A stretch of DNA of 64,000 bases, from positions 19,220 to 83,219 of the IMG/VR virus record IMGVR_UViG_2974625740_000001; one strand, written 5' to 3'. This DNA comes from a virus. Its lineage: Duplodnaviria; Caudoviricetes. The position numbers and the translations under genes were made by a program. The number at the start of each line of letters is the position of its first letter. The stretch's first letter is position 1. Positions 9,644 through 60,436 of this stretch are shown piece after piece. The notes under the pieces were generated by a model. That model saw only the letters and a list, made by a program, of their open reading frames with translations, searched no databases and was not told where the DNA came from.

Positions 9644-10180
9644 ATGCCACTCAGTGAGGCCGCGAGGGCGTTGTTCCCTTGGACCGACGAGAGCCGCCAC
9701 GCCTGCACCGAGGTCATCGTGGAGGGCAACACCTTTCGGTGCCCGTGCCGCTGTGGCTACCGGGGCAAGCAGGTGACATCGAGCCCGTCGCACGCGTTCA
9801 ACGCTACGAAGGTACACGCCGAGAATGAGAACCGACGCGAGGGCGACGGTGGCCAGAAGGTCGAGGGGGACCAGTACCAGAACAACGGCGAGCCCCCGCG
9901 CGCCGTCCGGCGGGCAGCCACCGCCGCGAGTACCCCGTCCCGGCCCGGGACGGCCCCACGGAGGGCCTCCCAGGGTACGCCGGGCACTCCGTGCGGGTGC
10001 GGGTGCGGGGAGCCCTCCGGTGGCCTCTTCCGGCCCGGACACGACTCGAAGTTGCTGAGCCGCCTGCTCAACGAGGTCAGGTCCGGTGCCAAGACCCTGG
10101 CCGACGCACACGCCGAGATGACCACCATCGGCACCAGCGAGGTGCTCAAGGAGAAGCTGGCCAAGAAGGTGGCGGCATGA
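9644..10180 (+). CDS. Zn-binding protein, PGHD family (divergent member)
   Basis: CPCRCG..H..H and TPCGCGCGEPSGGLFRPGHDSKLL. Confidence 0.7.
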   Translation: MPLSEAARALFPWTDESRHACTEVIVEGNTFRCPCRCGYRGKQVTSSPSHAFNATKVHAENENRREGDGGQKVEGDQYQNNGEPPRAVRRAATAASTPSRPGTAPRRASQGTPGTPCGCGCGEPSGGLFRPGHDSKLLSRLLNEVRSGAKTLADAHAEMTTIGTSEVLKEKLAKKVAA

Positions 10181-10404
10181 CCGACCTGACGCCGGACGAG
10201 ATCACGCTGGTTCAGTTCGAGAACACCAAGGAGAACCTGATCAGCCAGATGGTCGTGTACGGAATCGACCGTGACCAGGCTCGCATCCAGGTCGAGGGCC
10301 TGGTCACGTGGACCATGCGAGCGAAGGAGGCCATCGACCGTGCCGTATCGGAAGGAAAAGCGGGGGTCCAAATGGGTCGTCGTCAAGATCAAGAAGGCAC
10401 CTGA
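10177..10404 (+). CDS. hypothetical protein
   Basis: ATGA overlap; MTDLTPDE... Confidence 0.6.
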   Translation: MTDLTPDEITLVQFENTKENLISQMVVYGIDRDQARIQVEGLVTWTMRAKEAIDRAVSEGKAGVQMGRRQDQEGT

Positions 10405-10501
10405 CGAGACCGAGTCGACCGAGGTGGTCGGCAAGCACGACACCGAGGACGAGGCCAAGAAGCAGCTGGCCGCCCTCAAAATCAACGTGGAGGACGCGTA
10501 A
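10340..10501 (+). CDS. small hypothetical protein
   Basis: GTG with RBS GAAGGAGG; MPYRKEKRGSKWVVV...KHDTEDEAKKQLAAL. Confidence 0.65.
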   Translation: MPYRKEKRGSKWVVVKIKKAPDETESTEVVGKHDTEDEAKKQLAALKINVEDA

Positions 10502-11466
10502 TGCTCAGAGCCGTTGACACGGTCGCTGGCAGGCCCGGGGCCATCGTCATCAGCTACTCCGAGTTGGACACGTTCAAGCAGTGTCCGCACAAACACGACC
10601 TCGGGTACGTCCAGCGGTGGACGCAACCCAAGGACGAACGCACTGCCGCCGGTCGCGGCACGATGTGGCACAAGATCCTCGACTCGCACTACACCGCCTT
10701 GAAACACGGGGGCGGCAAGCGCGAGGTCGCGACCGCCGTGGCGGAGCGTGTCCAGGACTTCCGCAACGTCGGCAAGGACCCGGACGTCATCGACCTCCTC
10801 ATGTGGATGTACGAGGGGTATCTGGAGAAGTGGGGGCTCGACGAGGAATGGGAGATCCTCAAGGTCGAGTACAAGACCATCGTCCCCCTGAAGTACCGGA
10901 ACGGCAAGCTGTCCCGGTTCGACCTCAAGATGGTCATCGACCTGGTCGTGCGCGACCGGCGCACGGGAAAGGTGTGGCTGATCGACCACAAGTCACACGC
11001 GGCTCTGCCCAAAGAGCGCGAGCTGGAGCTGGATGACCAGTTCGGCCTCTACACGTGGGGTCTGCGCGAGCTGGGTCACAAGGTGTTCGGTGCGATCTAC
11101 AACACCGCCCGAACTCAACGCAACAAGGGTGACTATCCCGAGGTCATCCGCGAGTGGGAGATCAAGAAGGCGAACGGCCAGACCAAGGCCGCGCGCCCGG
11201 TGCCGCAGGACCTCGACGCCCGATTCGACCGGTACCTCATGTCGAGGACGCCGATCGAGGTCGAGAACATCGCCCAGGACGCCCTCGCCACGGCGCGTTC
11301 GATGTACTCCAGGGAGAACCGCCGGGAGCGGCACACCAACAACGACACGTGCAAGTGGAAGTGCGATTTCACTGAAGCGTGCCTGCTCGGCCGGAAGACC
11401 GACGACGCCCGTGAACTCCAGTTCCTCAAGGACACGGGTTTCGCCCAGGACTTCACCCGGCACTGA
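10501..11466 (+). CDS. RecB-like PD-(D/E)XK exonuclease
   Basis: SYSELDTFKQCP, GTMWH, IDLVVRD..LIDHKS, QFGLY, C-terminal C..C...C. Confidence 0.85.
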   Translation: MLRAVDTVAGRPGAIVISYSELDTFKQCPHKHDLGYVQRWTQPKDERTAAGRGTMWHKILDSHYTALKHGGGKREVATAVAERVQDFRNVGKDPDVIDLLMWMYEGYLEKWGLDEEWEILKVEYKTIVPLKYRNGKLSRFDLKMVIDLVVRDRRTGKVWLIDHKSHAALPKERELELDDQFGLYTWGLRELGHKVFGAIYNTARTQRNKGDYPEVIREWEIKKANGQTKAARPVPQDLDARFDRYLMSRTPIEVENIAQDALATARSMYSRENRRERHTNNDTCKWKCDFTEACLLGRKTDDARELQFLKDTGFAQDFTRH

Positions 11467-11545
11467 ACGTTGAGGCATCTGAGGCCCGGACCACCACCCG
11501 CGTGGCACCGGGCCTCAGATGTATCGGGTGCCACATACACAGGGC

Positions 11546-11575
11546 TTGTCTCTGGCGCAAGCCACATGGTACAAT
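11546..11575 (+). promoter_or_regulatory. dyad promoter, class II
   Basis: TTGTCT-N18-TACAAT, TTG-N9-CAA. Confidence 0.7.
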
Positions 11576-11611
11576 CTTGTACGATGTGGTAGCAACCAGG
11601 GAGGTGGCGCA

Positions 11612-11881
11612 ATGGACCGCAGGGTCTGGCGCGCAAGGGCCCAGGGTGGATACACCCGGGTGTTCGAGATCGTCAACGGGGCGGAGAGGTCGCCCGAGAT
11701 CGCCGTCAACAAAAAGGTCTTCGGCGAGCAGATCGCCCGTAAGCTCAACGAGGCTTACGCGTGGGGGGTGGCGGATTCCAAGGCCGACCATGAGCGCGAG
11801 GCGAAGATCAAAATCGCCGAGCTGCTCAAGGAGATGGGCCACGACAAGGCCGCCGACCTGGTGCGACAGGCCCCGATCTAG
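11612..11881 (+). CDS. hypothetical protein
   Basis: RBS GGAGG; has its own promoter. Confidence 0.7.
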   Translation: MDRRVWRARAQGGYTRVFEIVNGAERSPEIAVNKKVFGEQIARKLNEAYAWGVADSKADHEREAKIKIAELLKEMGHDKAADLVRQAPI

Positions 11882-11886
11882 GGGGC

Positions 11887-30580: not shown

Positions 30581-31696
30581 GTGGGTGGCAAGCTTCTGGT
30601 AGTGGCCGGAGCCCAGTACGGTTCCGAGGCCAAGGGACACGTCGCTGACCAGCTCAGCCGACCGGCCGTCGCGAGTGACAACGTGGTCGTCATGCGGGTG
30701 GCGGGACCGAACGCGGGTCACACCGTGTACGGCCTGTGCCCCAACGACTGCACCCCGGACGACTCGCACATGTCCGGCGAGAACTGGATCGGGCACCCGT
30801 GGCGGCTGCGCACCGTGCCGGTGGGGGCCGTCAGCAACCCCGATGCCGACCTGGTCATCGCCGCCGGTTCCGAGATCGACTACAACGTGCTCATGTCGGA
30901 GGTCGTCGCGCTAGACGCCGCCGGATACAAGGTCAGCCAGCGGCTGGTCATCGACACCCAAGCGACGCTGCTCGAACCGCGTCACATCCAGGAGGAGGTC
31001 GACGCCAAGATCCAGGAGCGTCTCGGCTCCACCGCCAAGGGCATCGGGGCGGCTCGCGCCGACCGCATCTGGCGACTGGCCAAGACCTGGGGTGACCACA
31101 TCCAAGACGAGGGCCGGATCGAGTCCGCCGAGTTCGTGCGGGGTCGGCTGGCCGACGGCGCTACGGTCGTGATCGAGGGGACCCAGGGGTTCGGCCTCGG
31201 GCTGCACGCGGGTCACTACCCCCAGTGCACCTCGTCCGACTGCCGCGCGATCGACTTCCTGTCCATGGCTGGCCTCAGCCCGTGGATGCGCGAGGTCGAC
31301 GAGTTCGGCGTCTGGCTGGCCGCCCGGGTCCGCCCGATCCGCGTGGCGGGCAACTCCGGCCCGATGAAGAACGAGACCACCTGGCAGGACCTGCGTCTGC
31401 CGGAGGAGTACACGACCGTGACCAAGAAGGTCCGGCGCGTGGGCGAGTGGGACGGCGAACTCGTCGCCCGCGCCGTGATCGCCAACGGCGGTGCTCCGGC
31501 CGTCCGGGTCGCGCTGACCATGGTCGACAGCATCTTCGACGAGATCCGCAACGCCGAGGGCATGTTCGACGACGTCGACTGGACGCACGAGGTTGCACCC
31601 CCGCTGCCCAAGATCGTGACCAACATCGAGCGCGAGATCGGGGCCCCGATCCGCATGATCACCACCTCGCCGACCACTGCCCTCTGGAGGCCGTGA
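30581..31696 (+). CDS. purZ: PurZ/PurZ0-type 2-amino-deoxyadenylosuccinate synthetase
   Basis: PurA fold (GPNAGHT, GSTAKGIGAA, EGTQG, TTVTKKVRRVG); Ser15 in GAQYGSEAKG replaces the PurA catalytic Asp; TMVD at the PurA TKLD site. Confidence 0.85.
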   Translation: MGGKLLVVAGAQYGSEAKGHVADQLSRPAVASDNVVVMRVAGPNAGHTVYGLCPNDCTPDDSHMSGENWIGHPWRLRTVPVGAVSNPDADLVIAAGSEIDYNVLMSEVVALDAAGYKVSQRLVIDTQATLLEPRHIQEEVDAKIQERLGSTAKGIGAARADRIWRLAKTWGDHIQDEGRIESAEFVRGRLADGATVVIEGTQGFGLGLHAGHYPQCTSSDCRAIDFLSMAGLSPWMREVDEFGVWLAARVRPIRVAGNSGPMKNETTWQDLRLPEEYTTVTKKVRRVGEWDGELVARAVIANGGAPAVRVALTMVDSIFDEIRNAEGMFDDVDWTHEVAPPLPKIVTNIEREIGAPIRMITTSPTTALWRP

Positions 31697-42029: not shown

Positions 42030-42701
42030 ATGAGCGAGACCGCAGTCGAGACGCCCGAGGTCGAGGCCGAGGCCGTCGAGGAGAAGCCGAAGCGCGAGAA
42101 GAAGGTCGTCGTCGCGACCCCCTGCGCCTGCCAGTTCTACACCGGCAAGGACAAGAGCGGGAACGACCTGTCGACCGGCTGCAACGGCGAGAACGTCCGG
42201 ACCTTCCTGCCGGGTCACGACGCCAAGCTCAAGTCGCTCCTGATCCAGGTCGGCGTCGCGGGTGGCCAGGTCACCAAGGCCACGGACGACGAGGACGTCC
42301 TGATGGACCCGCTGCACGCGGCCGAGGAGTACGGGTTCCGCAACCTCGTCGAGCAGTCCATCGACAAGGCCAAGGTCAAGGAGGAGGCTCGCGCGGCCAA
42401 GGCCCAGGAGCGCGCCGACGCCAAGGCCAAGAAGGAGCAGGAGAAGGCCGCCGCGAAGGCCAAGCGCGAGCAGGCCGCCAAGGCGAAGAAGGCGCACGCC
42501 GAGGCCGTCGCCAAGGCCGCCGAGGACGCCAAGGGCAAGCCGGGTCCGGCCAAGGCCAAGGTCGGCCGCACCACGGTCGAGGGCGAGATCCTCGCCGACG
42601 GAACGTTCAAGTACAAGAAGGGCGACGAGGACGTCGAGACCACGAACTACACCGTGGTGATCGACCCGGCGTCCGTCCCGGTTCCCGACGTCGAGGCCTG
42701 A
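42030..42701 (+). CDS. PGHD-family paralog
   Basis: TPCAC..STGC..TFLPGHDAKLK; Lys/Ala helix; AKVGRTTVEG C-domain. Confidence 0.75.
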   Translation: MSETAVETPEVEAEAVEEKPKREKKVVVATPCACQFYTGKDKSGNDLSTGCNGENVRTFLPGHDAKLKSLLIQVGVAGGQVTKATDDEDVLMDPLHAAEEYGFRNLVEQSIDKAKVKEEARAAKAQERADAKAKKEQEKAAAKAKREQAAKAKKAHAEAVAKAAEDAKGKPGPAKAKVGRTTVEGEILADGTFKYKKGDEDVETTNYTVVIDPASVPVPDVEA

Positions 42702-45960: not shown

Positions 45961-45962
45961 GG

Positions 45963-46536: not shown

Positions 46537-46567
46537 CCTCGAGAGTTTACCGTCGCACCATGCCCAC

Positions 46568-46597
46568 TTGTCGAAGGAGCAATCCCCATGATAAGAT
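46568..46597 (+). promoter_or_regulatory. dyad promoter, class II (transfer module)
   Basis: TTGTCG-N18-TAAGAT, TTG-N9-CAA. Confidence 0.7.
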
Positions 46598-46650
46598 GGT
46601 AATCCACCCGGTGCGGAAGCACCGGCCCTAAACTGATAGAGGTGAATCCG

Positions 46651-48200: not shown

Positions 48201-48282
48201 GTGTTGCACGCCACAGTCACAGCCGTGACACCCCCCTCCTGTCGGCTTCCTTGGCCGGTGGGAGGGGGTCCCGAGGACCCGA

Positions 48283-48318
48283 GTCACAATCACAGTCACG
48301 ATCACAGTCACAGTCGAC
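48283..48318. repeat. 6-bp tandem repeat (RTCACR) x6
   Basis: gtcaca atcaca gtcacg atcaca gtcaca gtcgac. Confidence 0.8.
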
Positions 48319-48340
48319 GATAACAGGAGGTGACAGACAG

Positions 48341-50065: not shown

Positions 50066-50078
50066 GAGGCTACGCACC

Positions 50079-52175
50079 ATGGGTAAGGTAATCGACTGGG
50101 ACGCTGGGCACGGTCCCGTCACGGGCACGCTCAACGCGGCGTATTCAGCGCTGGGCGTTGCTGCGGTCGGCCATGAGGCCGGGTTGCCTCCCGTCTGGGC
50201 CCTGGGTGCATCCGCTGTGGGTGCGCTCGGGGCCGGAATCGCGGGGGCATCAGCCGAGGAGCCGCTTAGCAAGGGCGCGATCCTTGCGCGCACGGGCGGC
50301 TGGCTGGCGGGTGGCGGCTGGGTGACCTACGCGCTGACAACCGACACGATCTGGTCGTGGTCGGTCATCGGACCGCTGGCGGCGTGTACGTGCGGTTTCG
50401 CCAGCCTGGCCGGAGCGATCGGCCGGAAGCGACGTCGCCAGCTTGAGCGCGAAGAGCGCGCGTTCATGGCGCTGACCCGCACGCGCATCGGCCTGGAGTG
50501 GGTCGCGCGCATTGAGCGGGTGTGCGGCATCAAGGGGTGCGTGGTCGAGGGCGTCGAGCAGTGGGTCGACGAGAACGGCAACGAGACCGGGGCCGGATAC
50601 GACCTCGAAATCCTGATGCCCGAGGGCGGTGCGAACTGGCGTCAGCTCGCCGGAGCCAACGAGCAGTTGGCCTCAGACGCCGACCTGCCCGAGGGGTGTG
50701 GCGTCGAGGTGTTCAGCGGCACCTCGCGCCGTCGCGCCATCATCAAGGTGCAGCTGGTCAACAACATGCTGAGCGAAGACCAGGAGGTGCCGCTGGATGC
50801 GTCGCCGCTCGACTTCAACGATTTCTTCGACATCGGCAAGCTGCGTGACGGCGGTGTCGCCAAGATCCACATTCGCGAGTTCTCCGCGATGCTGGTCGGC
50901 GCGAAGCGAACCGGTAAGACGAACCAGCTCCTTGCGATCATCACACGACTGCTCCGGATGCCCAACCTGCGGGTGTGGGTGATCGACTTCAACGGGGGTG
51001 GCGTCGCCCTTCAGTGGCTGCGCGCGTGGGAAGCCCTCGGGAAGCCTGGACGGCCTCCGATCGACTGGGTGGCCGCCGACGTCGACGAGGCCGCCCGGAT
51101 GGCCAACGCGGCTGTCCGCGTGGCCAAGGCACGCAAGGTCGAGTACCAGCAGCTCATGGCTGAGGCTGACACCGACCTGCTGCCGCTTACCGCCGAAATC
51201 CCGGGCATCCTCATCATCACCGACGAGGGGGCCGAGGTCTACGCGAACCCCAAGCACCGGGTTGCAGCTGAGCCGATGAAGGAGGTCCTTCGGATCGCTG
51301 GCGCGTCCGGCGTGAACCAGCTCAACTGCTTCTTGCGAGGCACCGCCGACACGACGGGCGACACGATCATCAAGAGCCAGTCGACCGTGCGCATCGGCAT
51401 GCGGATGTCGGACGAGCAGGAGATGTCGTACCTACTCGGCTGGCGTTCCGGCGTCACCCCGGCGGACATGCCCGAGCAGGGGTTCGGCGCGCTGTCGATG
51501 GACGAGGCCAAACCGGCGCAGATCTTCAGGGGGTGGCGGGTCAAGCCGAGCCACATCAAGTGGTTCGTCGAGCACACGGCCGGATATCGCCAGAACGAGG
51601 CGTTCGACGAGGTCAGCTTGAAGGCGATGGGCGAGGTCTACGCCACCCGCTGGGAGCGTGCCGAGTTCGTGTTCAACTCGGCTGTCCCCGCTCCCCAGGT
51701 GACCACGACGATGGTCCTCGACAAGGACGACGAGGGCGAGAGCTGGGGTGCCAGCGTCGACCCCAAGCAGGCGTCCGAGAACCTCTCGAAGGCCATCGAA
51801 GAGGCCAAGGCGGCACGGGGCACCCCGGAGCAGTCCGAGGCCGACGAATGGGCCTCCCTGGTGCAGGGCGGGGGTCTCTCCGACCTGGAGCAGTACTCGT
51901 TCGACAACCCCCCGCCGGAGCCGCCCCCGATCGACCCGGACGACCCCCAGTCGGACGAGCAGGAGGCCAACGACATCAGGGACGTCGCGGTCGGCATGGT
52001 CAAGGCCATGGGGTCCGAGGGAATCACCGTGGCTGAGGTCGTCAAGGCCCTTCAGCGTCAGTACGGTGACGACGCCCCGGTCCGCGAGACCGTGTTCCGC
52101 TGGTTCAAGAAGGACGACCGGATCGAGAAGATCGGCCACGGTCGATACGCCTGGAAGCAGGAGGAGGGCAACTGA
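50079..52175 (+). CDS. traB: TraB-like FtsK/SpoIIIE conjugative dsDNA translocase
   Basis: N-terminal TM helices, Walker A GAKRTGKT, Walker B IITDE, RIGMR, C-terminal winged helix (VRETVFRWF..IEKIGHGRY). Confidence 0.8.
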   Translation: MGKVIDWDAGHGPVTGTLNAAYSALGVAAVGHEAGLPPVWALGASAVGALGAGIAGASAEEPLSKGAILARTGGWLAGGGWVTYALTTDTIWSWSVIGPLAACTCGFASLAGAIGRKRRRQLEREERAFMALTRTRIGLEWVARIERVCGIKGCVVEGVEQWVDENGNETGAGYDLEILMPEGGANWRQLAGANEQLASDADLPEGCGVEVFSGTSRRRAIIKVQLVNNMLSEDQEVPLDASPLDFNDFFDIGKLRDGGVAKIHIREFSAMLVGAKRTGKTNQLLAIITRLLRMPNLRVWVIDFNGGGVALQWLRAWEALGKPGRPPIDWVAADVDEAARMANAAVRVAKARKVEYQQLMAEADTDLLPLTAEIPGILIITDEGAEVYANPKHRVAAEPMKEVLRIAGASGVNQLNCFLRGTADTTGDTIIKSQSTVRIGMRMSDEQEMSYLLGWRSGVTPADMPEQGFGALSMDEAKPAQIFRGWRVKPSHIKWFVEHTAGYRQNEAFDEVSLKAMGEVYATRWERAEFVFNSAVPAPQVTTTMVLDKDDEGESWGASVDPKQASENLSKAIEEAKAARGTPEQSEADEWASLVQGGGLSDLEQYSFDNPPPEPPPIDPDDPQSDEQEANDIRDVAVGMVKAMGSEGITVAEVVKALQRQYGDDAPVRETVFRWFKKDDRIEKIGHGRYAWKQEEGN

Positions 52176-52660
52176 TGGAGATCAACGCGTTGTTGGCCGT
52201 GTTCGTCGCTCTGTTCGTCGGGCACAGCGTGGCCGACCACTGGGTGCAGACCTCGTGTCAGGCCGTTGAGAAAGCGTACGGAGCCCCGGGCACGTCGAGG
52301 GAGCTTCGACGTCGCGGACAGCTCGCTTGCCTGCGGCACGTCCTCACGCTGACGGCCACGAAGTGGCTGCTCGTGCTGGTCGTCGTGGTCCCGTTTCACG
52401 TGAAACTGAACTGGTGGCAGGCCCTCGCTGGCCTCACCCTCGACGCCGTGTCGCACTACTGGGCCGACCGTCGATGGACCCTGGAGGAACTGGCGCGGTA
52501 CGTCGGCAAGGGCGAGTTCTACGACCAGGGCACGGACCTGGTCGACTGCGCTGGCGAGAAGCGTCCCCACATCGGCACCGGTCGGTACGCGCTCGACCAG
52601 AGCTGGCACCACCTGTGGTTGCTGATCGGCGCGTGGATCGCCACGGTCCCACTGCCCTGA
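52175..52660 (+). CDS. DUF3307-like membrane protein
   Basis: HSVADHWVQT, SHYWADRR, LDQSWH. Confidence 0.7.
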   Translation: MEINALLAVFVALFVGHSVADHWVQTSCQAVEKAYGAPGTSRELRRRGQLACLRHVLTLTATKWLLVLVVVVPFHVKLNWWQALAGLTLDAVSHYWADRRWTLEELARYVGKGEFYDQGTDLVDCAGEKRPHIGTGRYALDQSWHHLWLLIGAWIATVPLP

Positions 52661-52670
52661 CCCGACACAC

Positions 52671-52707
52671 GACGAGGCCCCCGCCACTCCCCGGCGGGGG
52701 CCTCGTC
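52671..52707. terminator. bidirectional stem-loop
   Basis: gacgaggcccccgcc / ggcgggggcctcgtc. Confidence 0.7.
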
Positions 52708-52712
52708 TGTGT

Positions 52713-53015
52713 TCAGTCCATCAGCATCGCCGCGACCAGCTCAGCCGGGATGGTGTTGGCCTCGATCGCGTCGCGCCACTCCTGGTCGATTCGGGCGACC
52801 TCTTCAGCGTCGGCCCACCAGGCGATGTTCTTGACCTCGCCGTCGACCACGCGCTGCCCGGTCCCGAGGACCTTGTCCCCGACCGGCTCCTTGGCGAACA
52901 GCCGGACCAGGTCGGTCGGCCGCTGCGGCAGGACCGGGAACCGGACCCCCACGATCTCGACGACCGCGAGACGGCTGTCGATGTTGCCCAGGACGAACTT
53001 CACGCGCTCCGTCAT
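52713..53015 (-). CDS. hypothetical protein
   Basis: RBS GAGGGAG; own promoter. Confidence 0.7.
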   Translation of the reverse strand: MTERVKFVLGNIDSRLAVVEIVGVRFPVLPQRPTDLVRLFAKEPVGDKVLGTGQRVVDGEVKNIAWWADAEEVARIDQEWRDAIEANTIPAELVAAMLMD

Positions 53016-53080
53016 TGGAAGCTCCCTCTTGAGTTTTCAACGGGGGCGGTGCGGTTGCCCGCCCCCTCCCTGCTAATTCT

Positions 53081-53109
53081 ATTAAATCATAGCCTTGCCA
53101 ACCGCGCAA
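53081..53109 (-). promoter_or_regulatory. dyad promoter, class I
   Basis: TTGCGC-N17-TTTAAT. Confidence 0.75.
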
Positions 53110-54539: not shown

Positions 54540-54552
54540 TTGCCAAAGGTAC

Positions 54553-54582
54553 TTGCGCGTTGAGCAAGCGGTGTGGTTTAAT
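54553..54582 (+). promoter_or_regulatory. dyad promoter, class I
   Basis: TTGCGC-N18-TTTAAT. Confidence 0.75.
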
Positions 54583-54635
54583 TGTATTAGCGGCAAGGGG
54601 GAACGGCCCCCAAGCCCCACACCGAGGAGAACGAA

Positions 54636-55088
54636 ATGAACGCCACCGCCAAGATCGCGAAGACCGCCACCGCCCCCTGCGCCTGCTCCCTCGTCGTCGC
54701 CATCGACGCCGCTGGCCGCGAGACCCGCACCGGTTGCACCGCGACCACCCGCCGGACGTTCGCCCCGGGTCACGACGCCCGTCTCAAGGGGTTCCTGATC
54801 CGCGCTGGCCGCGAGAACCTGCACGTCCGCGAGGTCGGTCGGGGCGTCGCCCACGAGACCACCGCCGCGAAGTTCGCCGAGCGCTACGGGTTCGGCCACA
54901 TGGTCCGCGAGGGCATCGCCCGGACCAAGGCCCCCCGCAAGGCCAAGGCGCAGGCCCCCGCGAAGGTCGTCGGCAAGGTCGGTCGCTGGACCTACGAGGG
55001 TACCGTGACGGCCGGTGGCAAGATCTTCACCTACACCGACCGCCAGGGCCGTACGCTGATGGCGGAGAAGTTCACGATCGTCGGCTGA
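54636..55088 (+). CDS. PGHD-family paralog
   Basis: PCAC..TGC..TFAPGHDARLK; KVGRWTYEG. Confidence 0.8.
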   Translation: MNATAKIAKTATAPCACSLVVAIDAAGRETRTGCTATTRRTFAPGHDARLKGFLIRAGRENLHVREVGRGVAHETTAAKFAERYGFGHMVREGIARTKAPRKAKAQAPAKVVGKVGRWTYEGTVTAGGKIFTYTDRQGRTLMAEKFTIVG

Positions 55089-55155
55089 GGCCGACCCCGG
55101 CGGGGGGCGACGAGCCCCCCGCCCAACGTGGCACAGGTCACATCGCACAGGGTAC

Positions 55156-55184
55156 TTGCGCAGCCCGCAAGGGCATGATTTAAT
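55156..55184 (+). promoter_or_regulatory. dyad promoter, class I
   Basis: TTGCGC-N17-TTTAAT. Confidence 0.75.
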
Positions 55185-55237
55185 AGAATTACGAGGTCGG
55201 GGGAACAGCCCCCCGGCCCCCACCGAAGGAGCCCGAA

Positions 55238-55723
55238 ATGAACGCCACCGCCGCGAAGATCGCCAAGGCCGTCAAGCCCTGCACCTGCTCCAAGGTCGTC
55301 GCCCGCACCGAGACCGGCGAGCTGGTCAGCACCGGTTGCCAGGCCACCACCAAGCGGACGTTCGCCCCCGGGCACGACGCGCGGCTGAAGGGCTTCCTGA
55401 TCCGGGCGGGCATCGAGGGTCACGACGTGAAGGTCGGCGACGACGCCCCCCGCACGGCGCAGCAGGTGGCGGACCAGTTCGGTTTCGGGTACATGGTCGC
55501 CGAGGGCATCAAGACCGGCACGGAGCGCGCGTTCAAGAAGGAGCTGCGCGACCTGGCCAAGGCCGCGAAGAAGACCCACGAGACCCCCAAGCAGGTCACC
55601 TGCAAGGTCGGCCGGTGGACGTACGAGGGCGTCGTGACCGACAGCCCGAACCACGGCCCCCAGTTCACCTACACGAACGCCAAGGGCGTGCAGGTCACCA
55701 CCACCAAGTTCACCCGGGTCTGA
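55238..55723 (+). CDS. PGHD-family paralog
   Basis: PCTC..TGC..TFAPGHDARLK; KVGRWTYEG. Confidence 0.8.
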   Translation: MNATAAKIAKAVKPCTCSKVVARTETGELVSTGCQATTKRTFAPGHDARLKGFLIRAGIEGHDVKVGDDAPRTAQQVADQFGFGYMVAEGIKTGTERAFKKELRDLAKAAKKTHETPKQVTCKVGRWTYEGVVTDSPNHGPQFTYTNAKGVQVTTTKFTRV

Positions 55724-55786
55724 CCGACCCGACCGGCGGGGGCCCAACCCGGGCCCCCGCCCCGTTCCCCAGAGAGGCAGGCAGTC

Positions 55787-55963
55787 ATGAGCCGCAAGGC
55801 GATTCGCCCGAGCAACCGGGTGCAGGTCGGCGCGTCCCAGACCGGGCGCGTGGTGATGACCGGGAAGCACAAGCAGGGCGGGACCTGGGTCCGGACCTAC
55901 AAGGTCCGTTTCGACACCGACGCCATCCGCACCGTGCGCGGGCACCTCGTCCAGCCGGTGTGA
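55787..55963 (+). CDS. 58-aa basic SH3-like protein
   Basis: MSRKAIRPSNRVQVG...YKVRFD; RBS GAGG. Confidence 0.55.
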   Translation: MSRKAIRPSNRVQVGASQTGRVVMTGKHKQGGTWVRTYKVRFDTDAIRTVRGHLVQPV

Positions 55964-55974
55964 CGCAGGTCACA
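55959..55974. promoter_or_regulatory. CRP-like box
   Basis: TGTGA-cgcagg-TCACA, identical to 54524-54539. Confidence 0.55.
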
Positions 55975-55995
55975 CAGCCAAGGAACCCGAGGGAC

Positions 55996-56025
55996 TTGCG
56001 CCAACCGCAAGCGACGTGATTTAAT
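55996..56025 (+). promoter_or_regulatory. dyad promoter, class I
   Basis: TTGCGC-N18-TTTAAT. Confidence 0.75.
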
Positions 56026-56082
56026 AAAATTACGAGGTCGGGGGGCGGTCCCCCGGCCCGGACCCCAGACGGGAGCAAGAAA

Positions 56083-56793
56083 ATGACGAAGACCACCGAG
56101 GCCATCGAGACCACCGCCACCCCCTGCGAGTGCAGCCGGTACGACGCGGTCCCGGGCGACCTCAGCGAGAAGCAGATCGCCGACGGCGACTACCCGATCT
56201 GGAACACGGGCTGCACCGCGACCACGAAGCGCGAGTTCGCCCCCGGTCACGACGCCAAGCTGAAGTCGGCGCTGATCGCCTGGGGTGCCATCGACGCCGA
56301 CGTCCGCCGAGGCATCGAGCACGACTCGGCGCAGGGGTGGGCCAAGCGGTACACCTTCGGTTACATGATCACCGAGGGCATCGAGAAGGCCAAGGCGAAG
56401 CTGGCGGCCAAGGCCGAGCGCGAGGCCGCTCGCAAGGCCAAGAAGGACGCCAAGGGCAAGCCCGCCGAGCGCAAGCTGGCCGAGGGTGCCGGGGTCGTGA
56501 AGCTGGCCGACGTGGTCGCCGACGAGGAGGCCGCGCACGCCGAGGCCGAGGCCCGCAAGGTCGCCGAGCGCGAGCAGTCGGCCGAGTGGGACGACGCCCC
56601 CGCGACGCCGATCCTGGAGGACGAGGCCGCGATGAACACCCGGGCCCGCGAGGAGCGCGAGCGGGACGAGGTTCAGGCCAAGATCGGCCGCTGGACGTAC
56701 AAGGGGATCGTCAGCGAGGACGGAACGTTCTCGTACCGCACCCCCAAGGGCGAGCTGAAGACCGCCAGCGAGGGCAAGTACAAGCTGGTCTGA
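56083..56793 (+). CDS. PGHD-family paralog
   Basis: TPCEC..TGC..EFAPGHDAKLK; KIGRWTYKG. Confidence 0.8.
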   Translation: MTKTTEAIETTATPCECSRYDAVPGDLSEKQIADGDYPIWNTGCTATTKREFAPGHDAKLKSALIAWGAIDADVRRGIEHDSAQGWAKRYTFGYMITEGIEKAKAKLAAKAEREAARKAKKDAKGKPAERKLAEGAGVVKLADVVADEEAAHAEAEARKVAEREQSAEWDDAPATPILEDEAAMNTRAREERERDEVQAKIGRWTYKGIVSEDGTFSYRTPKGELKTASEGKYKLV

Positions 56794-56995
56794 TCGGCCG
56801 GACAGGGCCCCGGGAACCCCGAGAGGGGGGCACCGGGGCCCTTCTGTGTGTCCGGCGGCACCAGAGCACCCCGGCGGCACGAGAGGCCGTCCGAGACCCC
56901 ACGGAAGGCCGCGCCAGGTGTCACCGCGCAACCTCGTTGCCGTGGGCTGCTCGTGGGGCGGTGGCGGCTTGTGCGCACGAGGTGCGCCAACCCAC

Positions 56996-57025
56996 TTGCG
57001 CTCAACGTGGTCAACATGGTTTAAT
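56996..57025 (+). promoter_or_regulatory. promoter, class I
   Basis: TTGCGC-N18-TTTAAT. Confidence 0.7.
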
Positions 57026-57070
57026 TGTATTAAGAGGCCGGGGGGTCCGGTCTCGCGAAAGGGGAACCCG

Positions 57071-57259
57071 ATGTTCAAGCTCCAGTTCCGTCAGAACGGC
57101 CGACTCGTCACCTTCCGCGACCTGACCGAGGAGCAGGCCCGCGCTGGCGTTGCGTTCGCCCGGACCCTGGGCGACGCGAGCGTCGTCGAGCTTCGGGTGC
57201 AGACCCCGGCGGTGGACCGCTTCGGCCCGGTCTGGGCCGACGTCACCGACCAGTTCTGA
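57071..57259 (+). CDS. hypothetical protein
   Basis: MFKLQFRQNG...; own promoter and hairpin. Confidence 0.7.
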   Translation: MFKLQFRQNGRLVTFRDLTEEQARAGVAFARTLGDASVVELRVQTPAVDRFGPVWADVTDQF

Positions 57260-57309
57260 GCCGACCGGCCCCCGTCCGAAAGGACGGGGGCCGACCCGTG
57301 CGAGGGGAC

Positions 57310-57339
57310 TTGCGCTCAACGCAAATCGTGTGATTTAAT
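57310..57339 (+). promoter_or_regulatory. dyad promoter, class I
   Basis: TTGCGC-N18-TTTAAT. Confidence 0.75.
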
Positions 57340-57383
57340 GGAATTACGCAAGGGGGAAACGCCCCCAGCGGAAGGAGCCCAAG

Positions 57384-57674
57384 ATGGACATCACGGTCGG
57401 CGTCAAGGTCGAGGCGAACGAAGAGGGCTGGAACCACGTCTACGGTGGCGGGTGGGCCCCGACCCCGGAGAACGTCCGTCAGGCCGTCGAGGACGGGCTT
57501 TACGCGGGTGAGTCCCCCTTCGACTTCGTGACCGTCGACGCGGACGGCATCGGCGTCCGGGTGAACCTGGAGGGGTGGGCGTTCCTGATGGGCGACGAGG
57601 AGCCCAGCGAGGAGGCCGTGATCCGGTTCGTCAAGGAGGCCATCACGGCGGACGGAACGATCAAGCTGGCCTGA
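57384..57674 (+). CDS. acidic hypothetical protein
   Basis: RBS GAAGGAG. Confidence 0.7.
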   Translation: MDITVGVKVEANEEGWNHVYGGGWAPTPENVRQAVEDGLYAGESPFDFVTVDADGIGVRVNLEGWAFLMGDEEPSEEAVIRFVKEAITADGTIKLA

Positions 57675-57723
57675 CGGCCCCAGGCCCCTTCCGAAAGGAG
57701 GGGGCCGACGCGTTCCCGGGAAC

Positions 57724-57752
57724 TTGCGCGAGACGCAAGGTTGTGATTTAAT
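57724..57752 (+). promoter_or_regulatory. dyad promoter, class I
   Basis: TTGCGC-N17-TTTAAT. Confidence 0.75.
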
Positions 57753-57796
57753 TGAAATTAGAGGGGGCAGGGAGCCCCCGCCGGAAGGAGCCCAAA

Positions 57797-58159
57797 ATGG
57801 CGAACCGCGAATTCAGCGACCACGGTCGGCCGGACCTCTTCGACGAGGACGGCGAGTTCATCGGGTCGGCTTCTGACTACGACTTCTGGACCTGCCGCAA
57901 CTGCGGCGAGAGCAACCAGGGGATCAGCCTCCAGGACGCCCAGGAGAACCACGACCTGTGGGGCGACTGCGAGGAGTTCGAGGTCATGGCCCAGATCGAG
58001 GACGACGTGATTGACCCCGAGGGCAAGGCCGCGACCGTGACCCAGATCGGCGAGGGCGGCGAGGTCGCGCTGGTTCGCTACGAGGACGGCACCGAGGGCG
58101 AGTGGGACCTGGTCGACCTCCTGGTGAAGCCGGAGGAGGACGCCGACGAGGCGTTCTGA
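57797..58159 (+). CDS. very acidic protein with a CxxC knuckle
   Basis: RBS GAAGGAG; WTCRNCG; D/E-rich. Confidence 0.7.
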   Translation: MANREFSDHGRPDLFDEDGEFIGSASDYDFWTCRNCGESNQGISLQDAQENHDLWGDCEEFEVMAQIEDDVIDPEGKAATVTQIGEGGEVALVRYEDGTEGEWDLVDLLVKPEEDADEAF

Positions 58160-58189
58160 CCCCCAGCGAGGTTGCCCCGGACGCGGGAC

Positions 58190-58218
58190 TTGCGTCCGGG
58201 GCAAAGCTGTGATTTAAT
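58190..58218 (+). promoter_or_regulatory. dyad promoter, class I
   Basis: TTGCGT-N17-TTTAAT. Confidence 0.75.
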
Positions 58219-58263
58219 TGAATTACAGCAGGGGGACGGGCCCCCGGGACGAAGGAGCACAAA

Positions 58264-58536
58264 ATGAGCAGCTTCCGGAAGATCGAGACGGACGAGCTGG
58301 CCGAGGTCGTGGCGGCAGTCATCGCCGACGCCGACCTGGTGTGGTACGACCGGCTGAACGGCCTGGAGGGCAAGACGGCGTTCGTCAGCGTCAAGCACAC
58401 GCAGTACCGGGTGCGCTTCAACGGGAAGAACCTCCCGTACGTCGACGTCGCCGAGGGCTGGGGCGGGCACGAGATCCTCAGCAACGGGAGCTTCACCAAC
58501 GAGGAGTACCGGCAGATCGCCCGTCGCCTCCGCTGA
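58264..58536 (+). CDS. hypothetical protein
   Basis: RBS GAAGGAG. Confidence 0.7.
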   Translation: MSSFRKIETDELAEVVAAVIADADLVWYDRLNGLEGKTAFVSVKHTQYRVRFNGKNLPYVDVAEGWGGHEILSNGSFTNEEYRQIARRLR

Positions 58537-58555
58537 AGGAACCGCGCCCCGGGAC

Positions 58556-58585
58556 TTGCGCCCGGGGCAAGCGGTGTGGTTTAAT
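58556..58585 (+). promoter_or_regulatory. dyad promoter, class I
   Basis: TTGCGC-N18-TTTAAT. Confidence 0.75.
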
Positions 58586-58632
58586 TGAATTACACGGGGG
58601 CGCACCGCCCCCGCTGACCGAGGAGCCAGCAC

Positions 58633-59055
58633 ATGACCGACACCACGCCCGCAACGCCCGAGTGGCTGAAGTTCATCAACTTCGAGGGCCGCATCACCGG
58701 GCCCACCGCGCAGGTCATCAAGGACGTCGCCGAGTCCCGGGGGCTCACCCCCGAGCAGGTCCTGACCGAGGCCCTGTGCGCCGGTCTCAACGTCATCGGG
58801 TGGGGCAACCCGGGCCGGTCCGAGGTCGACGCCCAGATCACCCCCTGGACGCCGAACGAGGGGTGCGGCGGGTTCCACGTCGTGACCGTGGTCGCCGACG
58901 GGTACGGGTTCATCGTGGCCGAGGACCAGAACGGCAAGGAGCGCGCCCGGGTCGCGTGCCAGGACCCGGACGAGGCCGACGCGAACCCCGGCAAGGACCT
59001 GGCCGACCTGATGGCCAAGTTCACCGAGGTCGTGGAGGCCGAGCGCAACGGCTGA
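58633..59055 (+). CDS. hypothetical protein
   Basis: RBS GAGGAG. Confidence 0.7.
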   Translation: MTDTTPATPEWLKFINFEGRITGPTAQVIKDVAESRGLTPEQVLTEALCAGLNVIGWGNPGRSEVDAQITPWTPNEGCGGFHVVTVVADGYGFIVAEDQNGKERARVACQDPDEADANPGKDLADLMAKFTEVVEAERNG

Positions 59056-59110
59056 CCCGCCCAACCCGACGCCCCCGGTCGCCAGCCGGGGGCGTCGGCG
59101 TGTCGGGAAC

Positions 59111-59140
59111 TTGCGCCGACCGCAAGCCGTGTGGTTTAAT
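59111..59140 (+). promoter_or_regulatory. dyad promoter, class I
   Basis: TTGCGC-N18-TTTAAT. Confidence 0.75.
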
Positions 59141-59185
59141 TGAATTAGAGCAGGGGGACACGCCCCCTGCGGAACGGAGCCTGCC

Positions 59186-59437
59186 GTGTTCACCCACTTC
59201 GAATTCCCGGACATCGACGAGACCGACTCGGAGCTGGTCGCCGACGCGCTGCTGGCCGCCGAGGGCGTTGGGCCGATCTTCGGCTTCCGCTGTGACCCTC
59301 GGTTCGGCCCGTTCCTGGTGACCGTGGTCGAGGGCAACTGGGTGGCCCTGGCGACCGGCGAGTCGCCGACCGCCGAGGACGTCAAGGCGTACGTGTTGAA
59401 GCGGCTCGCCGAGGTGCGCGCCGAGCGCAACGCCTGA
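59186..59437 (+). CDS. hypothetical protein
   Basis: GTG with RBS GGAG. Confidence 0.65.
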   Translation: MFTHFEFPDIDETDSELVADALLAAEGVGPIFGFRCDPRFGPFLVTVVEGNWVALATGESPTAEDVKAYVLKRLAEVRAERNA

Positions 59438-59484
59438 CCGAACCCCGACCCGGGTGGTGTGACACGCGCCACCCGGGTCGGGAC

Positions 59485-59513
59485 TTGCGCGACGGACAAG
59501 CCCGTGATTTAAT
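59485..59513 (+). promoter_or_regulatory. dyad promoter, class I
   Basis: TTGCGC-N17-TTTAAT. Confidence 0.75.
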
Positions 59514-59560
59514 AGAATTACGCAAGGGGGCACCGGGCCCCCGGCGGGGAGGAGCCAGAA

Positions 59561-60436
59561 ATGAGCAGCATCAAGATCGGCGAGACGGTCCGCTTCCGGA
59601 TCGACGGCAAGCGGGTTTTCGGGGTCGTCCGCACGGAGGCCGTCCTGACCGCCAGCGGCAACCTGGTGAAGGTCCAGCTTCTGCCGGACTTCGCGCACCT
59701 CCTGCCGACCGGCTGGACCGACGCCAGCGTCGACGAGCTGACGATCGTCAAGGTCTGCGCCTGCGCGCACCTCGCGTACCGGCCGATCTGGGGTGACCGC
59801 AAGGGCGAGCTGTTCACCACGGGCTGCGACTTCAGCCGGATGCCGTCCCGCAACAGCAAGTTCCTGCCGGGGCACGACGCCCGAGCCAAGTCGTTCCTGA
59901 TCAAGGCGAGCGGGTTCGCCCAGACCCTGGAGAACGGCAAGGGCGCGCTGGAGCAGGCCCGCGAGTTCAGTGACAAGATCTCGCTGGCGGTCGCCAAGGG
60001 CATCGACAACGCCCGGAAGCGCGACGCGCAGGCCGCCCGGAGCAAGCGGCCGAGCCGCAAGCCGGAGCCCGCCCCCGCGACCCGCGAGGACGAGCTGACC
60101 GAACCGCAGAAGATCCACCGCCGGATCGGCCTTACCGAGCCGATGTTGCGGGTGTTGGTCCGGGGCGCGCTGAACGACACCAAGGGCTTCCGGGGTTGGG
60201 TCTCCGGCCCGGCTGGCACCGAGGTCGCCCTGATGAAGCGCGGGTGCACCTCGTGGGGTCGGGTGACCGACCTGGGCTACCAGGCGTGCGGTCTGCCGAC
60301 CTTCGCCGAGGAACACCCCGACCTGGTCGTCTGCAAGGACGACGAGGGCAGCTACGAGGACCACGCGCCGAAGTGGGACGAGGAGACGTTCGTCCGGGTC
60401 TGCAAGCGGTGCGGTGCCGAGGTGGAAGACAACTGA
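59561..60436 (+). CDS. PGHD-family protein with extra N-terminal SH3-like and C-terminal domains
   Basis: KVCAC..TTGC..KFLPGHDARAK; C-terminal C..H..CKRC. Confidence 0.75.
   Translation: MSSIKIGETVRFRIDGKRVFGVVRTEAVLTASGNLVKVQLLPDFAHLLPTGWTDASVDELTIVKVCACAHLAYRPIWGDRKGELFTTGCDFSRMPSRNSKFLPGHDARAKSFLIKASGFAQTLENGKGALEQAREFSDKISLAVAKGIDNARKRDAQAARSKRPSRKPEPAPATREDELTEPQKIHRRIGLTEPMLRVLVRGALNDTKGFRGWVSGPAGTEVALMKRGCTSWGRVTDLGYQACGLPTFAEEHPDLVVCKDDEGSYEDHAPKWDEETFVRVCKRCGAEVEDN

What the first reader, a model, noticed from the sequence alone, without database searches (positions are those of the whole stretch)
9644..60436. Six-member CxC...C...F-x-PGHD paralog family, mostly with their own promoters
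Seen: ORFs at 9644, 42030, 54636, 55238, 56083 and 59561 share (T)PCxC-var-TGC-x-FxPGHD(A/S)(K/R)(L/A). Four also share a Lys/Ala-rich helix and a C-terminal K(V/I)GR(W/T)T(Y/V)xG beta domain. Three are almost tandem at 54.6-56.8 kb. Inference: a Cys3His Zn module plus an SH3/KOW-like domain, expanded as nucleoid-like DNA binders or as diversified anti-defence effectors. I know no function for this family.
Basis: partly seen in the sequence, partly recalled or inferred. Interest (0 to 1): 0.75.

Follow-up and report, generated by a model that had tools for sequence, protein, structure and literature searches.

The report
New zinc-module family of Z-genome actinophages
Six genes of this Streptomyces phage are real paralogs built on a small, undescribed zinc-type module that has no detectable known relative and occurs almost only in actinobacterial phages that replace adenine with 2-aminoadenine; its function is still untested.

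Summary
The window is the right 64 kb of an 83-kb lytic Streptomyces phage, 96.6% identical to phage Spocter. All six ORFs share invariant C-x-C…C…F-x-P-G-H-D. Four also carry a long charged helix and a C-terminal SH3-like barrel. Each has its own CTTG-N9-CAAG dyad promoter-like motif. The second gene starts at 42030.

AlphaFold2 models the N-terminal module with pLDDT 95. No solved structure resembles it (best Z 3.2), and neither Pfam, NCBIfam nor PDB sequences match. The family is large: 813 clusters at 50% identity. ORF 9644 belongs to a shorter CxCxC form.

The short form behaves as a mobile accessory domain. It is fused to a DUF429 RNase H-like nuclease, to Amidoligase_2, and to a portal–MuF–NUDIX head protein.

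New here: the module tracks PurZ0-type 2-aminoadenine (Z-genome) actinophages.
- 11 of 12 complete module-bearing viral contigs carry a PurZ-like gene.
- 20 of 30 PurZ-bearing contigs carry the module.
- In cultured phages a Korra gp32 homologue and PurZ each occur in 105 Arthrobacter and 18 Microbacterium records.
- Five Gram-negative or cyanobacterial Z phages lack it.

I read it as a zinc-stabilised targeting module, probably associated with DNA. Function is untested, and the PurZ0 link may reflect shared ancestry.

The parts
9580..9596 (+). CTTG-N9-CAAG dyad at the -35-like position, followed by TGCTAGGCT; promoter-like motif in front of ORF 9644
9644..10180 (+). Paralog 1 (178 aa; Spocter gp37). 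N-terminal CRCGY...SPSH...H Cys/His region, a Pro/Arg/Ser-rich linker, and a C-terminal short-form module (CGCGCG...FRPGHDSKLL) at 9983-10180. No barrel domain.
   Evidence: (PHROG 5395, E 1.4e-9)
30581..31696 (+). Context marker, not a family member: PurZ0-like 2-aminoadenylosuccinate synthetase with Ser in place of the PurA catalytic Asp
   Evidence: PMC12884076
41953..41990 (+). Dyad CTTGACCCCGGAGCAAG plus TGGTACAAT; promoter-like motif of paralog 2. It covers the ATG at 41982.
42030..42701 (+). Paralog 2 (223 aa, pI 5.6; Spocter gp89). Long-form N-module 42099-42365, Lys/Ala/Glu-rich helix, barrel 42537-42659.
54552..54589 (+). Dyad plus TGGTTTAATTGTATTA box; promoter-like motif of paralog 3, followed by a GGGGG...CCCCC hairpin and GGAG
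54636..55088 (+). Paralog 3 (150 aa, pI 10.6; Spocter gp105). N-module 54654-54920, barrel 54954-55082.
55155..55191 (+). Dyad plus TGATTTAATAGAATTA box; promoter-like motif of paralog 4
55238..55723 (+). Paralog 4 (161 aa, pI 9.7; Spocter gp106); the protein that was modelled. N-module 55253-55513, helix residues 84-113, barrel 55583-55720.
55995..56032 (+). Dyad plus TGATTTAATAAAATTA box; promoter-like motif of paralog 5
56083..56793 (+). Paralog 5 (236 aa, pI 5.7; Spocter gp108). N-module with a longer hairpin 56098-56385, about 90-residue charged helix, barrel 56656-56790. Belongs to a supported orthologue clade (97/95).
59484..59520 (+). Dyad plus TGATTTAATAGAATTA box; promoter-like motif of paralog 6
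59561..60436 (+). Paralog 6 (291 aa; Spocter gp115). N-terminal roughly 55-residue extension, N-module 59735-60007, and a different Cys-rich C-terminus ending in CKRCG; the family's C-terminal barrel profile does not match it. Clade with L016 supported at 100/99.

Best explanation
The six ORFs are old, separately promoted paralogs of an uncharacterised protein family of actinobacterial mobile elements. The family is defined by one small module with the pattern C-x-C, then either one residue or a beta-hairpin insert, then C, then 7-12 residues, then F-x-P-G-H-D-(A/S)-(K/R)-L. I infer that the three Cys and the His, which caps the following helix, hold one structural Zn.

The module behaves as a portable targeting or adaptor domain rather than as an enzyme. 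It occurs alone and in tandem. It is also fused to catalytic or binding partners: an SH3-like barrel reached through a rigid charged helix (four of the six ORFs here), a DUF429 RNase H-like nuclease, Amidoligase_2, and a NUDIX domain inside a portal-MuF head protein.

The module belongs to the gene set of PurZ0-type phages, whose DNA carries 2-aminoadenine (Z) instead of adenine. The short form (ORF 9644, Korra gp32, Goodman gp36, Archimedes gp47) sits in or beside the replication and recombination genes.

My most likely mechanism is that the module docks on the phage's own replicating or entering DNA, or on a protein bound to it, and brings along whatever is fused to it. Under this reading the four helix-plus-barrel paralogs are two-headed DNA or nucleoprotein binders with heads held 30-130 residues apart, and the basic and acidic paralogs have split the task between them.

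Shown here: the family, its invariant residues, the confident fold without a known relative, the fusions, and the PurZ0 co-occurrence. Inferred: zinc binding, DNA association, and timing of expression.
For: Family and motif. There are 813 clusters at E<=1e-3 and 410 at E<=1e-10.

Fold: the full protein models at pLDDT 89 and the N-module alone at pLDDT 95.4, pTM 0.83. The barrel matches KOW, Tudor, chromo and Cren7 domains at Z 3.7-4.5 over 41-46 residues.

Adaptor behaviour:
- DUF429 with one or two C-terminal modules. DUF429 is a predicted RNase H-like nuclease (PMC3985635).
- Module followed by Amidoligase_2, in a contig that also has ThyX, DNA Pol A, a PurA-like gene and a dUTPase.
- Portal-MuF-NUDIX protein of 2406 aa with two modules.
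- Tandem copies.

Z-phage link:
- Module-bearing IMG/VR records with a PF00709 gene: 18/26 overall and 7/8 of complete records; in a second sample 7/13 overall and 4/4 complete.
- PurZ-bearing records with the module: 20/30 overall, 12/19 complete, often with 2-4 copies.
- PurZ-like genes occur in only 191 of 50,697 cultured phage records.
- A Frankia short module hits only 28 phage records: the three Spocter-like phages and 25 Arthrobacter phages. Every one of these that I could cross-check also appears in the PurZ list.
- Korra gp32 homologues are found in 105 Arthrobacter and 18 Microbacterium records, the same counts as PurZ.
- Korra, Archimedes and Goodman each carry the module.

Placement next to helicase, exonuclease, HNH or PurZ genes.

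Expression hint: soil metatranscriptome contigs from one study cover parts of paralogs 54636, 55238, 56083 and 59561; most of these pieces differ from the window by 0-2 letters (up to 7). Loose ends in the same runs read like the 42030 paralog.
Against: No direct evidence shows binding of zinc, DNA or any partner.

The long-form N-module is often acidic. Its net charge runs from -11 to +7 with a median of -2.5, which is unusual for a general DNA binder. It resembles no known DNA-binding fold.

The PurZ0 link may simply be shared ancestry. Cultured PurZ0 phages form only two gene-sharing groups (PMC12884076). Seven of 19 complete PurZ-bearing contigs lack the module. The module also occurs without PurZ in Streptomyces and Nocardiopsis integrative elements, in Frankia, and in Acidimicrobiia and Gemmatimonadales MAGs.

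Five PurZ phages of Gram-negative bacteria or cyanobacteria lack the module, so it is not needed for a Z genome as such.

Amidoligase and MuF fusions fit protein targets as well as they fit DNA.

The RNA-library contigs could be DNA carry-over.
Confidence: 0.45

Rival explanations
1. Host-takeover or counter-defence adaptors. The invariant FxPGHD face binds one conserved actinobacterial protein, such as RNA polymerase, a nucleoid protein or a defence sensor. The barrel and helix, or the fused enzymes, then act on that protein. The paralogs would cover different host variants or targets.
For: The genes are small and lie in the right-arm region of small, separately promoted genes. They evolve faster than the neighbouring translocase: dN/dS 0.57-0.68 against 0.23. 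Their charge is variable and often acidic. Fusion to a MuF head protein, a class usually ejected into the cell, and to Amidoligase_2 fits action on host proteins. In chromosomal elements the gene sits at the element's edge next to the integrase and has its own promoter-like motif.
Against: No partner is known. PADLOC gives no match for the six phage paralogs; two related proteins gave only weak, sub-significant hits. At least two paralog types (56083 and 59561) are well-supported orthologue groups conserved across related phages, not recent bursts. The short form sits inside replication modules. The nuclease fusion points to nucleic acid.
Confidence: 0.3
2. Regulators of the phage's own dyad promoters. 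The proteins would dimerise through the long helix and bind the CTTG-N9-CAAG operator that overlaps the -35 element of some 24 or more promoters.
For: A palindromic operator needs a dimeric binder. The same promoter architecture (TTG-N9-CAA plus TGATTTGAT) lies upstream of the family gene in Streptomyces integrative elements. Many family-bearing contigs are rich in the dyad.
Against: Several contigs carry 2-3 family members and no dyad at all: L012 and L016 from one 89-kb record, plus L022 and L024. Arthrobacter, Gordonia and Microbacterium phages have the short form but were not seen to share this promoter. Six paralogs with opposite charge are unexpected for one operator. The phage also encodes ordinary HTH proteins.
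Confidence: 0.08
3. A small metalloenzyme. Three Cys would hold a catalytic Zn with an open site, and the His-Asp pair would act in catalysis on a nucleotide, filling a gap in the Z pathway of phages that lack an HD-type DatZ.
For: An invariant His-Asp doublet sits next to three invariant Cys. PF01966 finds DatZ in phiVC8 and S-2L. It finds nothing in 24 PurZ-bearing contigs of the window's type, nor in Korra, Archimedes or Goodman.
Against: The short form is only about 55 residues. The module is fused to real enzymes as an accessory. Six paralogs in one genome argue against a single enzymatic step. In PurZ0 phages dATP and dGTP hydrolysis is already assigned to DutZ and DUF5664, and dAMP hydrolysis to DmtZ (PMC12884076). 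Within PurZ-bearing contigs, module presence does not vary with HD presence.
Confidence: 0.05

Closest known systems
SWIM zinc finger (Pfam PF04434; signature CxCxnCxH)
   Same: It starts with a C-x-C pair on a beta-strand. A third Cys follows a variable spacer, and a His lies at the start of a helix. It is a small accessory domain found fused to diverse nucleic-acid enzymes.
   Different: In SWIM the last two ligands are C-x-H. Here Cys and His are 7-12 residues apart, with the invariant F-x-P-G between them. None of 34 members gives a Pfam hit even at E<=10. No structural match was found.
SH3-like small beta-barrels (KOW of eS4 and Spt5, Tudor, chromo, Cren7)
   Same: The C-terminal 45 residues align over the whole domain with these barrels: Z 3.7-4.5, rmsd 2.0-3.4 A, 41-46 residues. 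Many of them bind nucleic acid or modified protein tails.
   Different: There is no sequence relationship. The domain has its own signature, K-V-G-R-W-x-Y-x-G. The Z scores are too low to assign a family.
dutZ and dmtZ, accessory genes enriched in PurZ0 genomes (Poubanne et al. 2026, PMC12884076)
   Same: The module's distribution matches what I sampled of this pattern: present in PurZ0-type actinophages (Korra, Archimedes, Goodman, Spocter) and absent from the PurZ/DatZ-type phages phiVC8, S-2L, SH-Ab 15497, ZP6 and BUCT555.
   Different: Those genes are nucleotide-pool enzymes with shown activities. This module has no enzyme-like features, is multi-copy, and also occurs outside PurZ genomes. 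A Pfam-based association study could not have seen it because it has no Pfam model.
PHROG families 5395, 5477, 5539 and 5390 (unknown function)
   Same: ORF 9644 matches them at E 1.4e-9 to 6.5e-6 over the module. ORFs 55238 and 56083 touch phrog_5390 weakly.
   Different: They carry no annotation, so membership adds no function.

Membership tests
SWIM zinc finger (PF04434) | Signature C-x-C-x(n)-C-x-H and a match to the Pfam model | tested here: not met
   The Cys3-His spacing is 7-12 residues, not 1. SWIM is not among the Pfam matches of the 34 N-modules at E<=10 or of the six full proteins at E<=1.
SH3-like small beta-barrel fold class (KOW/Tudor/chromo) | Five-stranded small barrel superposable on solved members | tested here: inconclusive
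   The whole C-domain aligns, but only at Z 3.7-4.5 and Foldseek E 0.1-1. The fold class is plausible; the family is not assignable.
KOW, Tudor or other sequence families of such barrels | Match to the Pfam model | tested here: not met
   No consistent Pfam match in 26 C-domains at E<=10. No PDB sequence match.
HD-domain phosphohydrolases (DatZ type) | H...HD...D metal motif in an all-helical domain of about 120 residues or more; match to PF01966 | tested here: not met
   The module is 55-85 residues and mixed alpha/beta. There is no Pfam match. PF01966 finds DatZ in the phiVC8 and S-2L controls but nothing in module-bearing PurZ records.
Structural Cys3His zinc site | Four invariant ligands close in space and bound Zn | not testable with these tools
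   The ligands are invariant in all alignments.
Known anti-phage defence proteins (PADLOC-DB) | Match to a PADLOC model | tested here: not met
   None of the six phage paralogs matches at E<=0.01. One chromosomal relative and one DUF429 fusion give single weak hits only.
PurZ0-phage accessory gene set | Occurs with PurZ0 far more often than expected and is absent from PurZ/DatZ-type phages | tested here: met
   Not corrected for shared ancestry.

The most novel reading that the evidence does not exclude
The CxC...C...FxPGHD module is a reader or handler of 2-aminoadenine DNA. It would tell Z-DNA from ordinary host DNA, or work where the extra minor-groove amino group and the stronger Z:T pairs disable ordinary DNA-binding proteins. 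That would explain why PurZ0 phages keep one copy in the replication module, attach it to nucleases, NUDIX and ligase-type enzymes, and, in Spocter-like phages, have expanded it into six proteins. The 14-kb Streptomyces elements that carry it behind the same promoter type would then be satellites of such phages.
Probability: 0.18. Interest if true: 0.9.

Novelty: new variant of a known kind. Interest (0 to 1): 0.7.

Why it matters
Work on Z-genome phages has so far identified only nucleotide-pool enzymes and the polymerase. How a genome made entirely of Z:T pairs is recognised, opened, transcribed, recombined and kept apart from host DNA is still open.

This family is the first non-enzymatic gene family seen to track the PurZ0 lineage. 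Pfam-based association studies could not have found it, because it has no Pfam model. It gives that question a direct experimental handle: compare binding to A-DNA and Z-DNA of the same sequence.

Independently of that, the module is a confidently predicted small fold with no solved relative. It forms a large, unannotated family of at least 800 clusters and is a good candidate for a new Pfam entry and a structure determination.

Tried and rejected
Searches that found nothing:
- Pfam, NCBIfam and PADLOC on the full proteins.
- Pfam on the separated domains.
- PDB sequence profiles.
- ESM Atlas.
- PLSDB plasmids.

Structure searches:
- Foldseek and VIA with the whole model were dominated by the long helix and the barrel.
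- For the N-module alone the best matches were GYF, Dmd and DdrB at E>=0.66 and SAMHD1 at Z 3.2 with rmsd 6.4 A. I treat these as noise.

N-terminal extensions of longer relatives carry no known domain.

Ideas considered and dropped:
- Recombination directionality factor, because chromosomal copies sit directly upstream of a large serine recombinase. Dropped because no integrase is annotated in the near-identical Spocter, which nonetheless has six copies.
- Dyad-operator binder. Weakened by family-bearing contigs without dyads.
- Missing dATPase. Weakened by PMC12884076.

Other points:
- tblastn with long-form paralogs finds only Spocter, Keanu and Galactica among cultured phages.
- An Amidoligase-type short module finds none.
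- I could not check whether Streptomyces phage Hiyaa, a Foldseek hit in BFVD, carries PurZ. Only three Streptomyces records do, so Hiyaa may be a module-like case without PurZ.
- The sigma-70 consensus scan finds no promoter in 54.3-60.7 kb.
- Literature searches for the motif found nothing.


Full report
**What the window is.** The window is bases 19220-83219 of an 83,219-bp virus record. It is 96.6% identical over the tested 6.5 kb to Streptomyces phage Spocter, and related to phages Keanu and Galactica. Spocter is annotated without an integrase. It has a PurA-like synthetase, a PurB-like lyase, a dUTPase, DNA Pol I and an FtsK-like translocase. The six ORFs correspond to Spocter gp37, gp89, gp105, gp106, gp108 and gp115, all annotated 'hypothetical protein'.

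**The observation.** The six translations align with invariant C, C, C, F, P, G, H, D and L. A profile built from them finds six places in the whole genome and no more. HMMs that I built for the two domains locate them as follows:
- The N-module is found in five ORFs at E 1e-8 to 4e-39.
- The C-terminal domain is found in four ORFs (42030, 54636, 55238, 56083).

ORF 9644 falls below the long-form HMM threshold. It shares the core with the others at hhalign probability 89%, E 2e-6, over 22 columns. It has the same CxCGCG spacing as short forms that the long-form HMM does detect in Frankia, Acidimicrobiia and Gemmatimonadales.

The second gene starts at 42030. The ATG at 41982 lies inside TGGTACAAT, the -10-like box that follows the dyad at 41953. 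Spocter gp89 has the corresponding 223-aa start.

All six genes are preceded by CTTG-N9-CAAG. The window has 24 copies against 0.43 expected. The four right-arm genes also have TGRTTTAATNRNATTA, with 19 copies against 0.02 expected, followed by a G5...C5 hairpin and a GGAG. That these are promoters is inference; the sigma-70 consensus scan finds none.

**Are they real, expressed genes?** dN/dS against a metagenomic relative (L008) is 0.57-0.68 for four paralogs. That is higher than the neighbouring translocase (0.23) and similar to other small right-arm genes. dS is compressed by the extreme GC3, so the ratios are inflated.

Three soil metatranscriptome runs from one study hold contigs that cover parts of 54636, 55238, 56083 and 59561. 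Most of these pieces differ from the window by 0-2 letters (up to 7). One 664-nt contig covers nearly all of 56083 without a single difference. Loose ends in the same runs read like the 42030 paralog. DNA carry-over in these libraries cannot be excluded.

**Structure.**
- With a 45-sequence alignment, AlphaFold2 gives pLDDT 89 for the 161-aa paralog. The predicted layout is strand, short helix, beta-hairpin, helix from His46, strand, two helices, a 30-residue single helix, and a four-stranded C-terminal barrel.
- The N-module alone, with 34 sequences, gives pLDDT 95.4 and pTM 0.83.
- Against 48,161 PDB representatives the best Z for the N-module is 3.2. Foldseek's best E is 0.66. The tool's own guide says unmatched models typically reach Z 7-8, so this module has no recognisable solved relative.
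- The barrel aligns over its full length with eS4 and Spt5 KOW, Tudor, chromo, R67 DHFR and Cren7 domains at Z 3.7-4.5. This supports the SH3-like fold class only.
- Neither domain matches Pfam or PDB sequences.

**Size and spread of the family.**
- A profile search of 1.84 billion representatives finds 813 clusters at E<=1e-3 and 410 at E<=1e-10, none with a name.
- Related phage contigs carry 2-4 members, in L008 in the same order as in the window.
- In a tree of N-modules, the 56083 type (97/95) and the 59561 type (100/99) form supported clades with members from other contigs. At least these paralogs are old and retained, not recent bursts.
- The paralogs differ in charge: pI 10.6 and 9.7 against 5.7 and 5.6. 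Across the family the N-module's net charge runs from -11 to +7.

**The short form is a mobile accessory domain.** A profile of twelve short modules finds 898 longer proteins. Fusions confirmed with Pfam:
- DUF429 followed by one or two modules. DUF429 is a predicted RNase H-like nuclease (PMC3985635).
- Module followed by Amidoligase_2. One such gene lies among dCMP deaminase, ThyX, AAA_24, DNA Pol A, a PurA-like gene and a dUTPase.
- A 2406-aa frame (L171:6720-13940, minus strand) with portal, Mu F-like and NUDIX domains, which also holds two modules.

Tandem modules and modules with other Cys-rich tails also occur.

**Chromosomal copies.** Thirty-seven loci were found in species-representative genomes, mostly Streptomyces and Nocardiopsis. 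Only 8 of 301 Streptomyces species genomes have a match, so the gene is accessory. In these loci it lies directly upstream of a large serine recombinase of about 800 aa, in an element that also has Prim-Pol/PriCT and D5_N/DUF5906 genes. In one genome the element is about 14 kb, lies between a ComM-like Mg-chelatase gene and a sigma-factor gene, and holds two family members. Its family gene is preceded by TTG-N9-CAA plus TGATTTGAT and a hairpin, the same architecture as in the phage.

**The link to Z genomes.** In my alignment the Ser that replaces the catalytic Asp of PurA is invariant in the window, Korra, Archimedes, Goodman and phiVC8. This is the PurZ hallmark described in PMC12884076.

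The co-occurrence tests gave:
- Of 26 viral records fetched because they carry the family, 18 have a PF00709 gene, including 7 of 8 that are at least 90% complete.
- In an independent set fetched with the short form, 7 of 13 have one, including 4 of 4 complete.
- Conversely, of 30 records fetched with a PurZ alignment, 20 have the module, including 12 of 19 complete, often in 2-4 copies.
- Among 50,697 cultured phage records, PurZ-like genes occur in 191.
- A short module taken from a Frankia chromosome hits only 28 records: the three Spocter-like phages and 25 Arthrobacter phages. Every one of these that I could cross-check also appears in the PurZ list.
- My HMMs find the module in Korra gp32, Archimedes gp47, and Goodman gp36 and gp62. 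These lie near the helicase, exonuclease or PurZ genes.
- Korra gp32 homologues occur in 105 Arthrobacter and 18 Microbacterium records, exactly the PurZ counts for those genera.
- Five PurZ phages of Gram-negative bacteria or cyanobacteria have none: phiVC8, S-2L, SH-Ab 15497, ZP6 and BUCT555.

This is the PurZ0 versus PurZ split of Poubanne et al. 2026. PurZ0 phages of Actinobacteria carry DutZ, DmtZ and DUF5664. PurZ phages carry DatZ and MazZ or DUF550. In agreement, PF01966 finds DatZ in phiVC8 and S-2L. It finds nothing in 24 PurZ contigs of the window's type, nor in Korra, Archimedes or Goodman. A Pfam-based association study of dZ contigs (bioRxiv 10.1101/2025.10.22.683976) could not have seen this family, because it has no Pfam model.

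**Caveats on the link.**
- Cultured PurZ0 phages form only two gene-sharing groups, so the counts are not independent events.
- 7 of 19 complete PurZ contigs lack the module.
- The module exists without PurZ in integrative elements and in some bacterial genomes.
- The module is therefore neither necessary nor sufficient for a Z genome. The association may reflect an ancestral replication-module gene of this lineage.

**Reading.**
- The invariant Cys3-His pattern, the small size, the many fusions to real enzymes and the multi-copy state argue for a zinc-stabilised binding module rather than an enzyme.
- The nuclease and NUDIX/MuF fusions, the replication-module placement and the nucleic-acid-type barrel tilt me towards DNA, or a DNA-bound protein, as the target.
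- The variable and often acidic charge, together with the amidoligase and MuF fusions, keep a host-protein target well alive.
- A role as the dyad-operator binder is weakened by family-rich contigs without dyads.
- A role as the missing dATPase is weakened because that function is already assigned in PurZ0 phages.

Noticed in passing
window 54550-61233 (+ strand) and 37850-53089 (- strand): A roughly 75-nt intergenic cassette is repeated. It consists of the CTTGCG-N7-CGCAAG dyad, TGRTTTAATNRNATTA, a G5-N4-C5 hairpin and GGAG. There are 19 copies of the AT-rich box and 24 dyads. The 16-bp AT-rich box in a 68% GC genome is not a consensus -10; in a Z genome it might ease strand opening.
   Followed up: partly
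L057 and L073 (Streptomyces durocortorensis contig NODE_2, about 40.9-55.3 kb); similar in L045-L066: An integrative element of about 14 kb lies between a ComM-like Mg-chelatase gene and a sigma-factor gene. It has Prim-Pol/PriCT, a D5_N helicase, a large serine recombinase, two family members and the phage's promoter architecture, but no room for capsid genes. It may be a satellite of Spocter-like phages.
   Followed up: partly
L171:6720-13940 (- strand): One open frame of 2406 aa in a 59-kb PurZ-bearing viral contig joins portal, Mu F-like and NUDIX domains, two short zinc modules and about 500 further residues. It could be a virion-borne, injected nucleotide hydrolase.
   Followed up: partly
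window 9644-9850: ORF 9644 and its 23 aligned orthologues have a second conserved Cys/His motif near the N-terminus (F-x3-C-R-C-G-Y...S-P-S-H...H-x-E-N-E-N). Korra gp32 also has a Cys-rich N-terminal half in front of its module.
   Followed up: no
window 59561-59730 and 60250-60436: Paralog 6 begins with a roughly 55-residue extension (GETVRFRIDGKRVFGVVR...) that some chromosomal relatives (L051, L052) appear to share. It ends in a separate Cys-rich tail (C...C...CKRCG).
   Followed up: no
window 54674-60369: Soil metatranscriptome contigs from one study match gene bodies of the paralogs, most with 0-2 differences (up to 7). A rhizosphere DNA contig of 72.6 kb carries a relative of the whole region.
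   Followed up: partly
24 PurZ-bearing IMG/VR records (G330-G353) and phages Korra, Archimedes and Goodman: PF01966 finds no HD-type DatZ in any of them, while the phiVC8 and S-2L controls ring. This agrees with the published PurZ0/DutZ versus PurZ/DatZ split.
   Followed up: yes
L079 (Gemmatimonadales MAG contig, 4.9-9.1 kb): Four family members, three short-form and one with a C-terminal beta domain, lie within 4.2 kb of a non-actinobacterial genome. Paralog arrays of this module therefore recur outside Actinobacteria.
   Followed up: no
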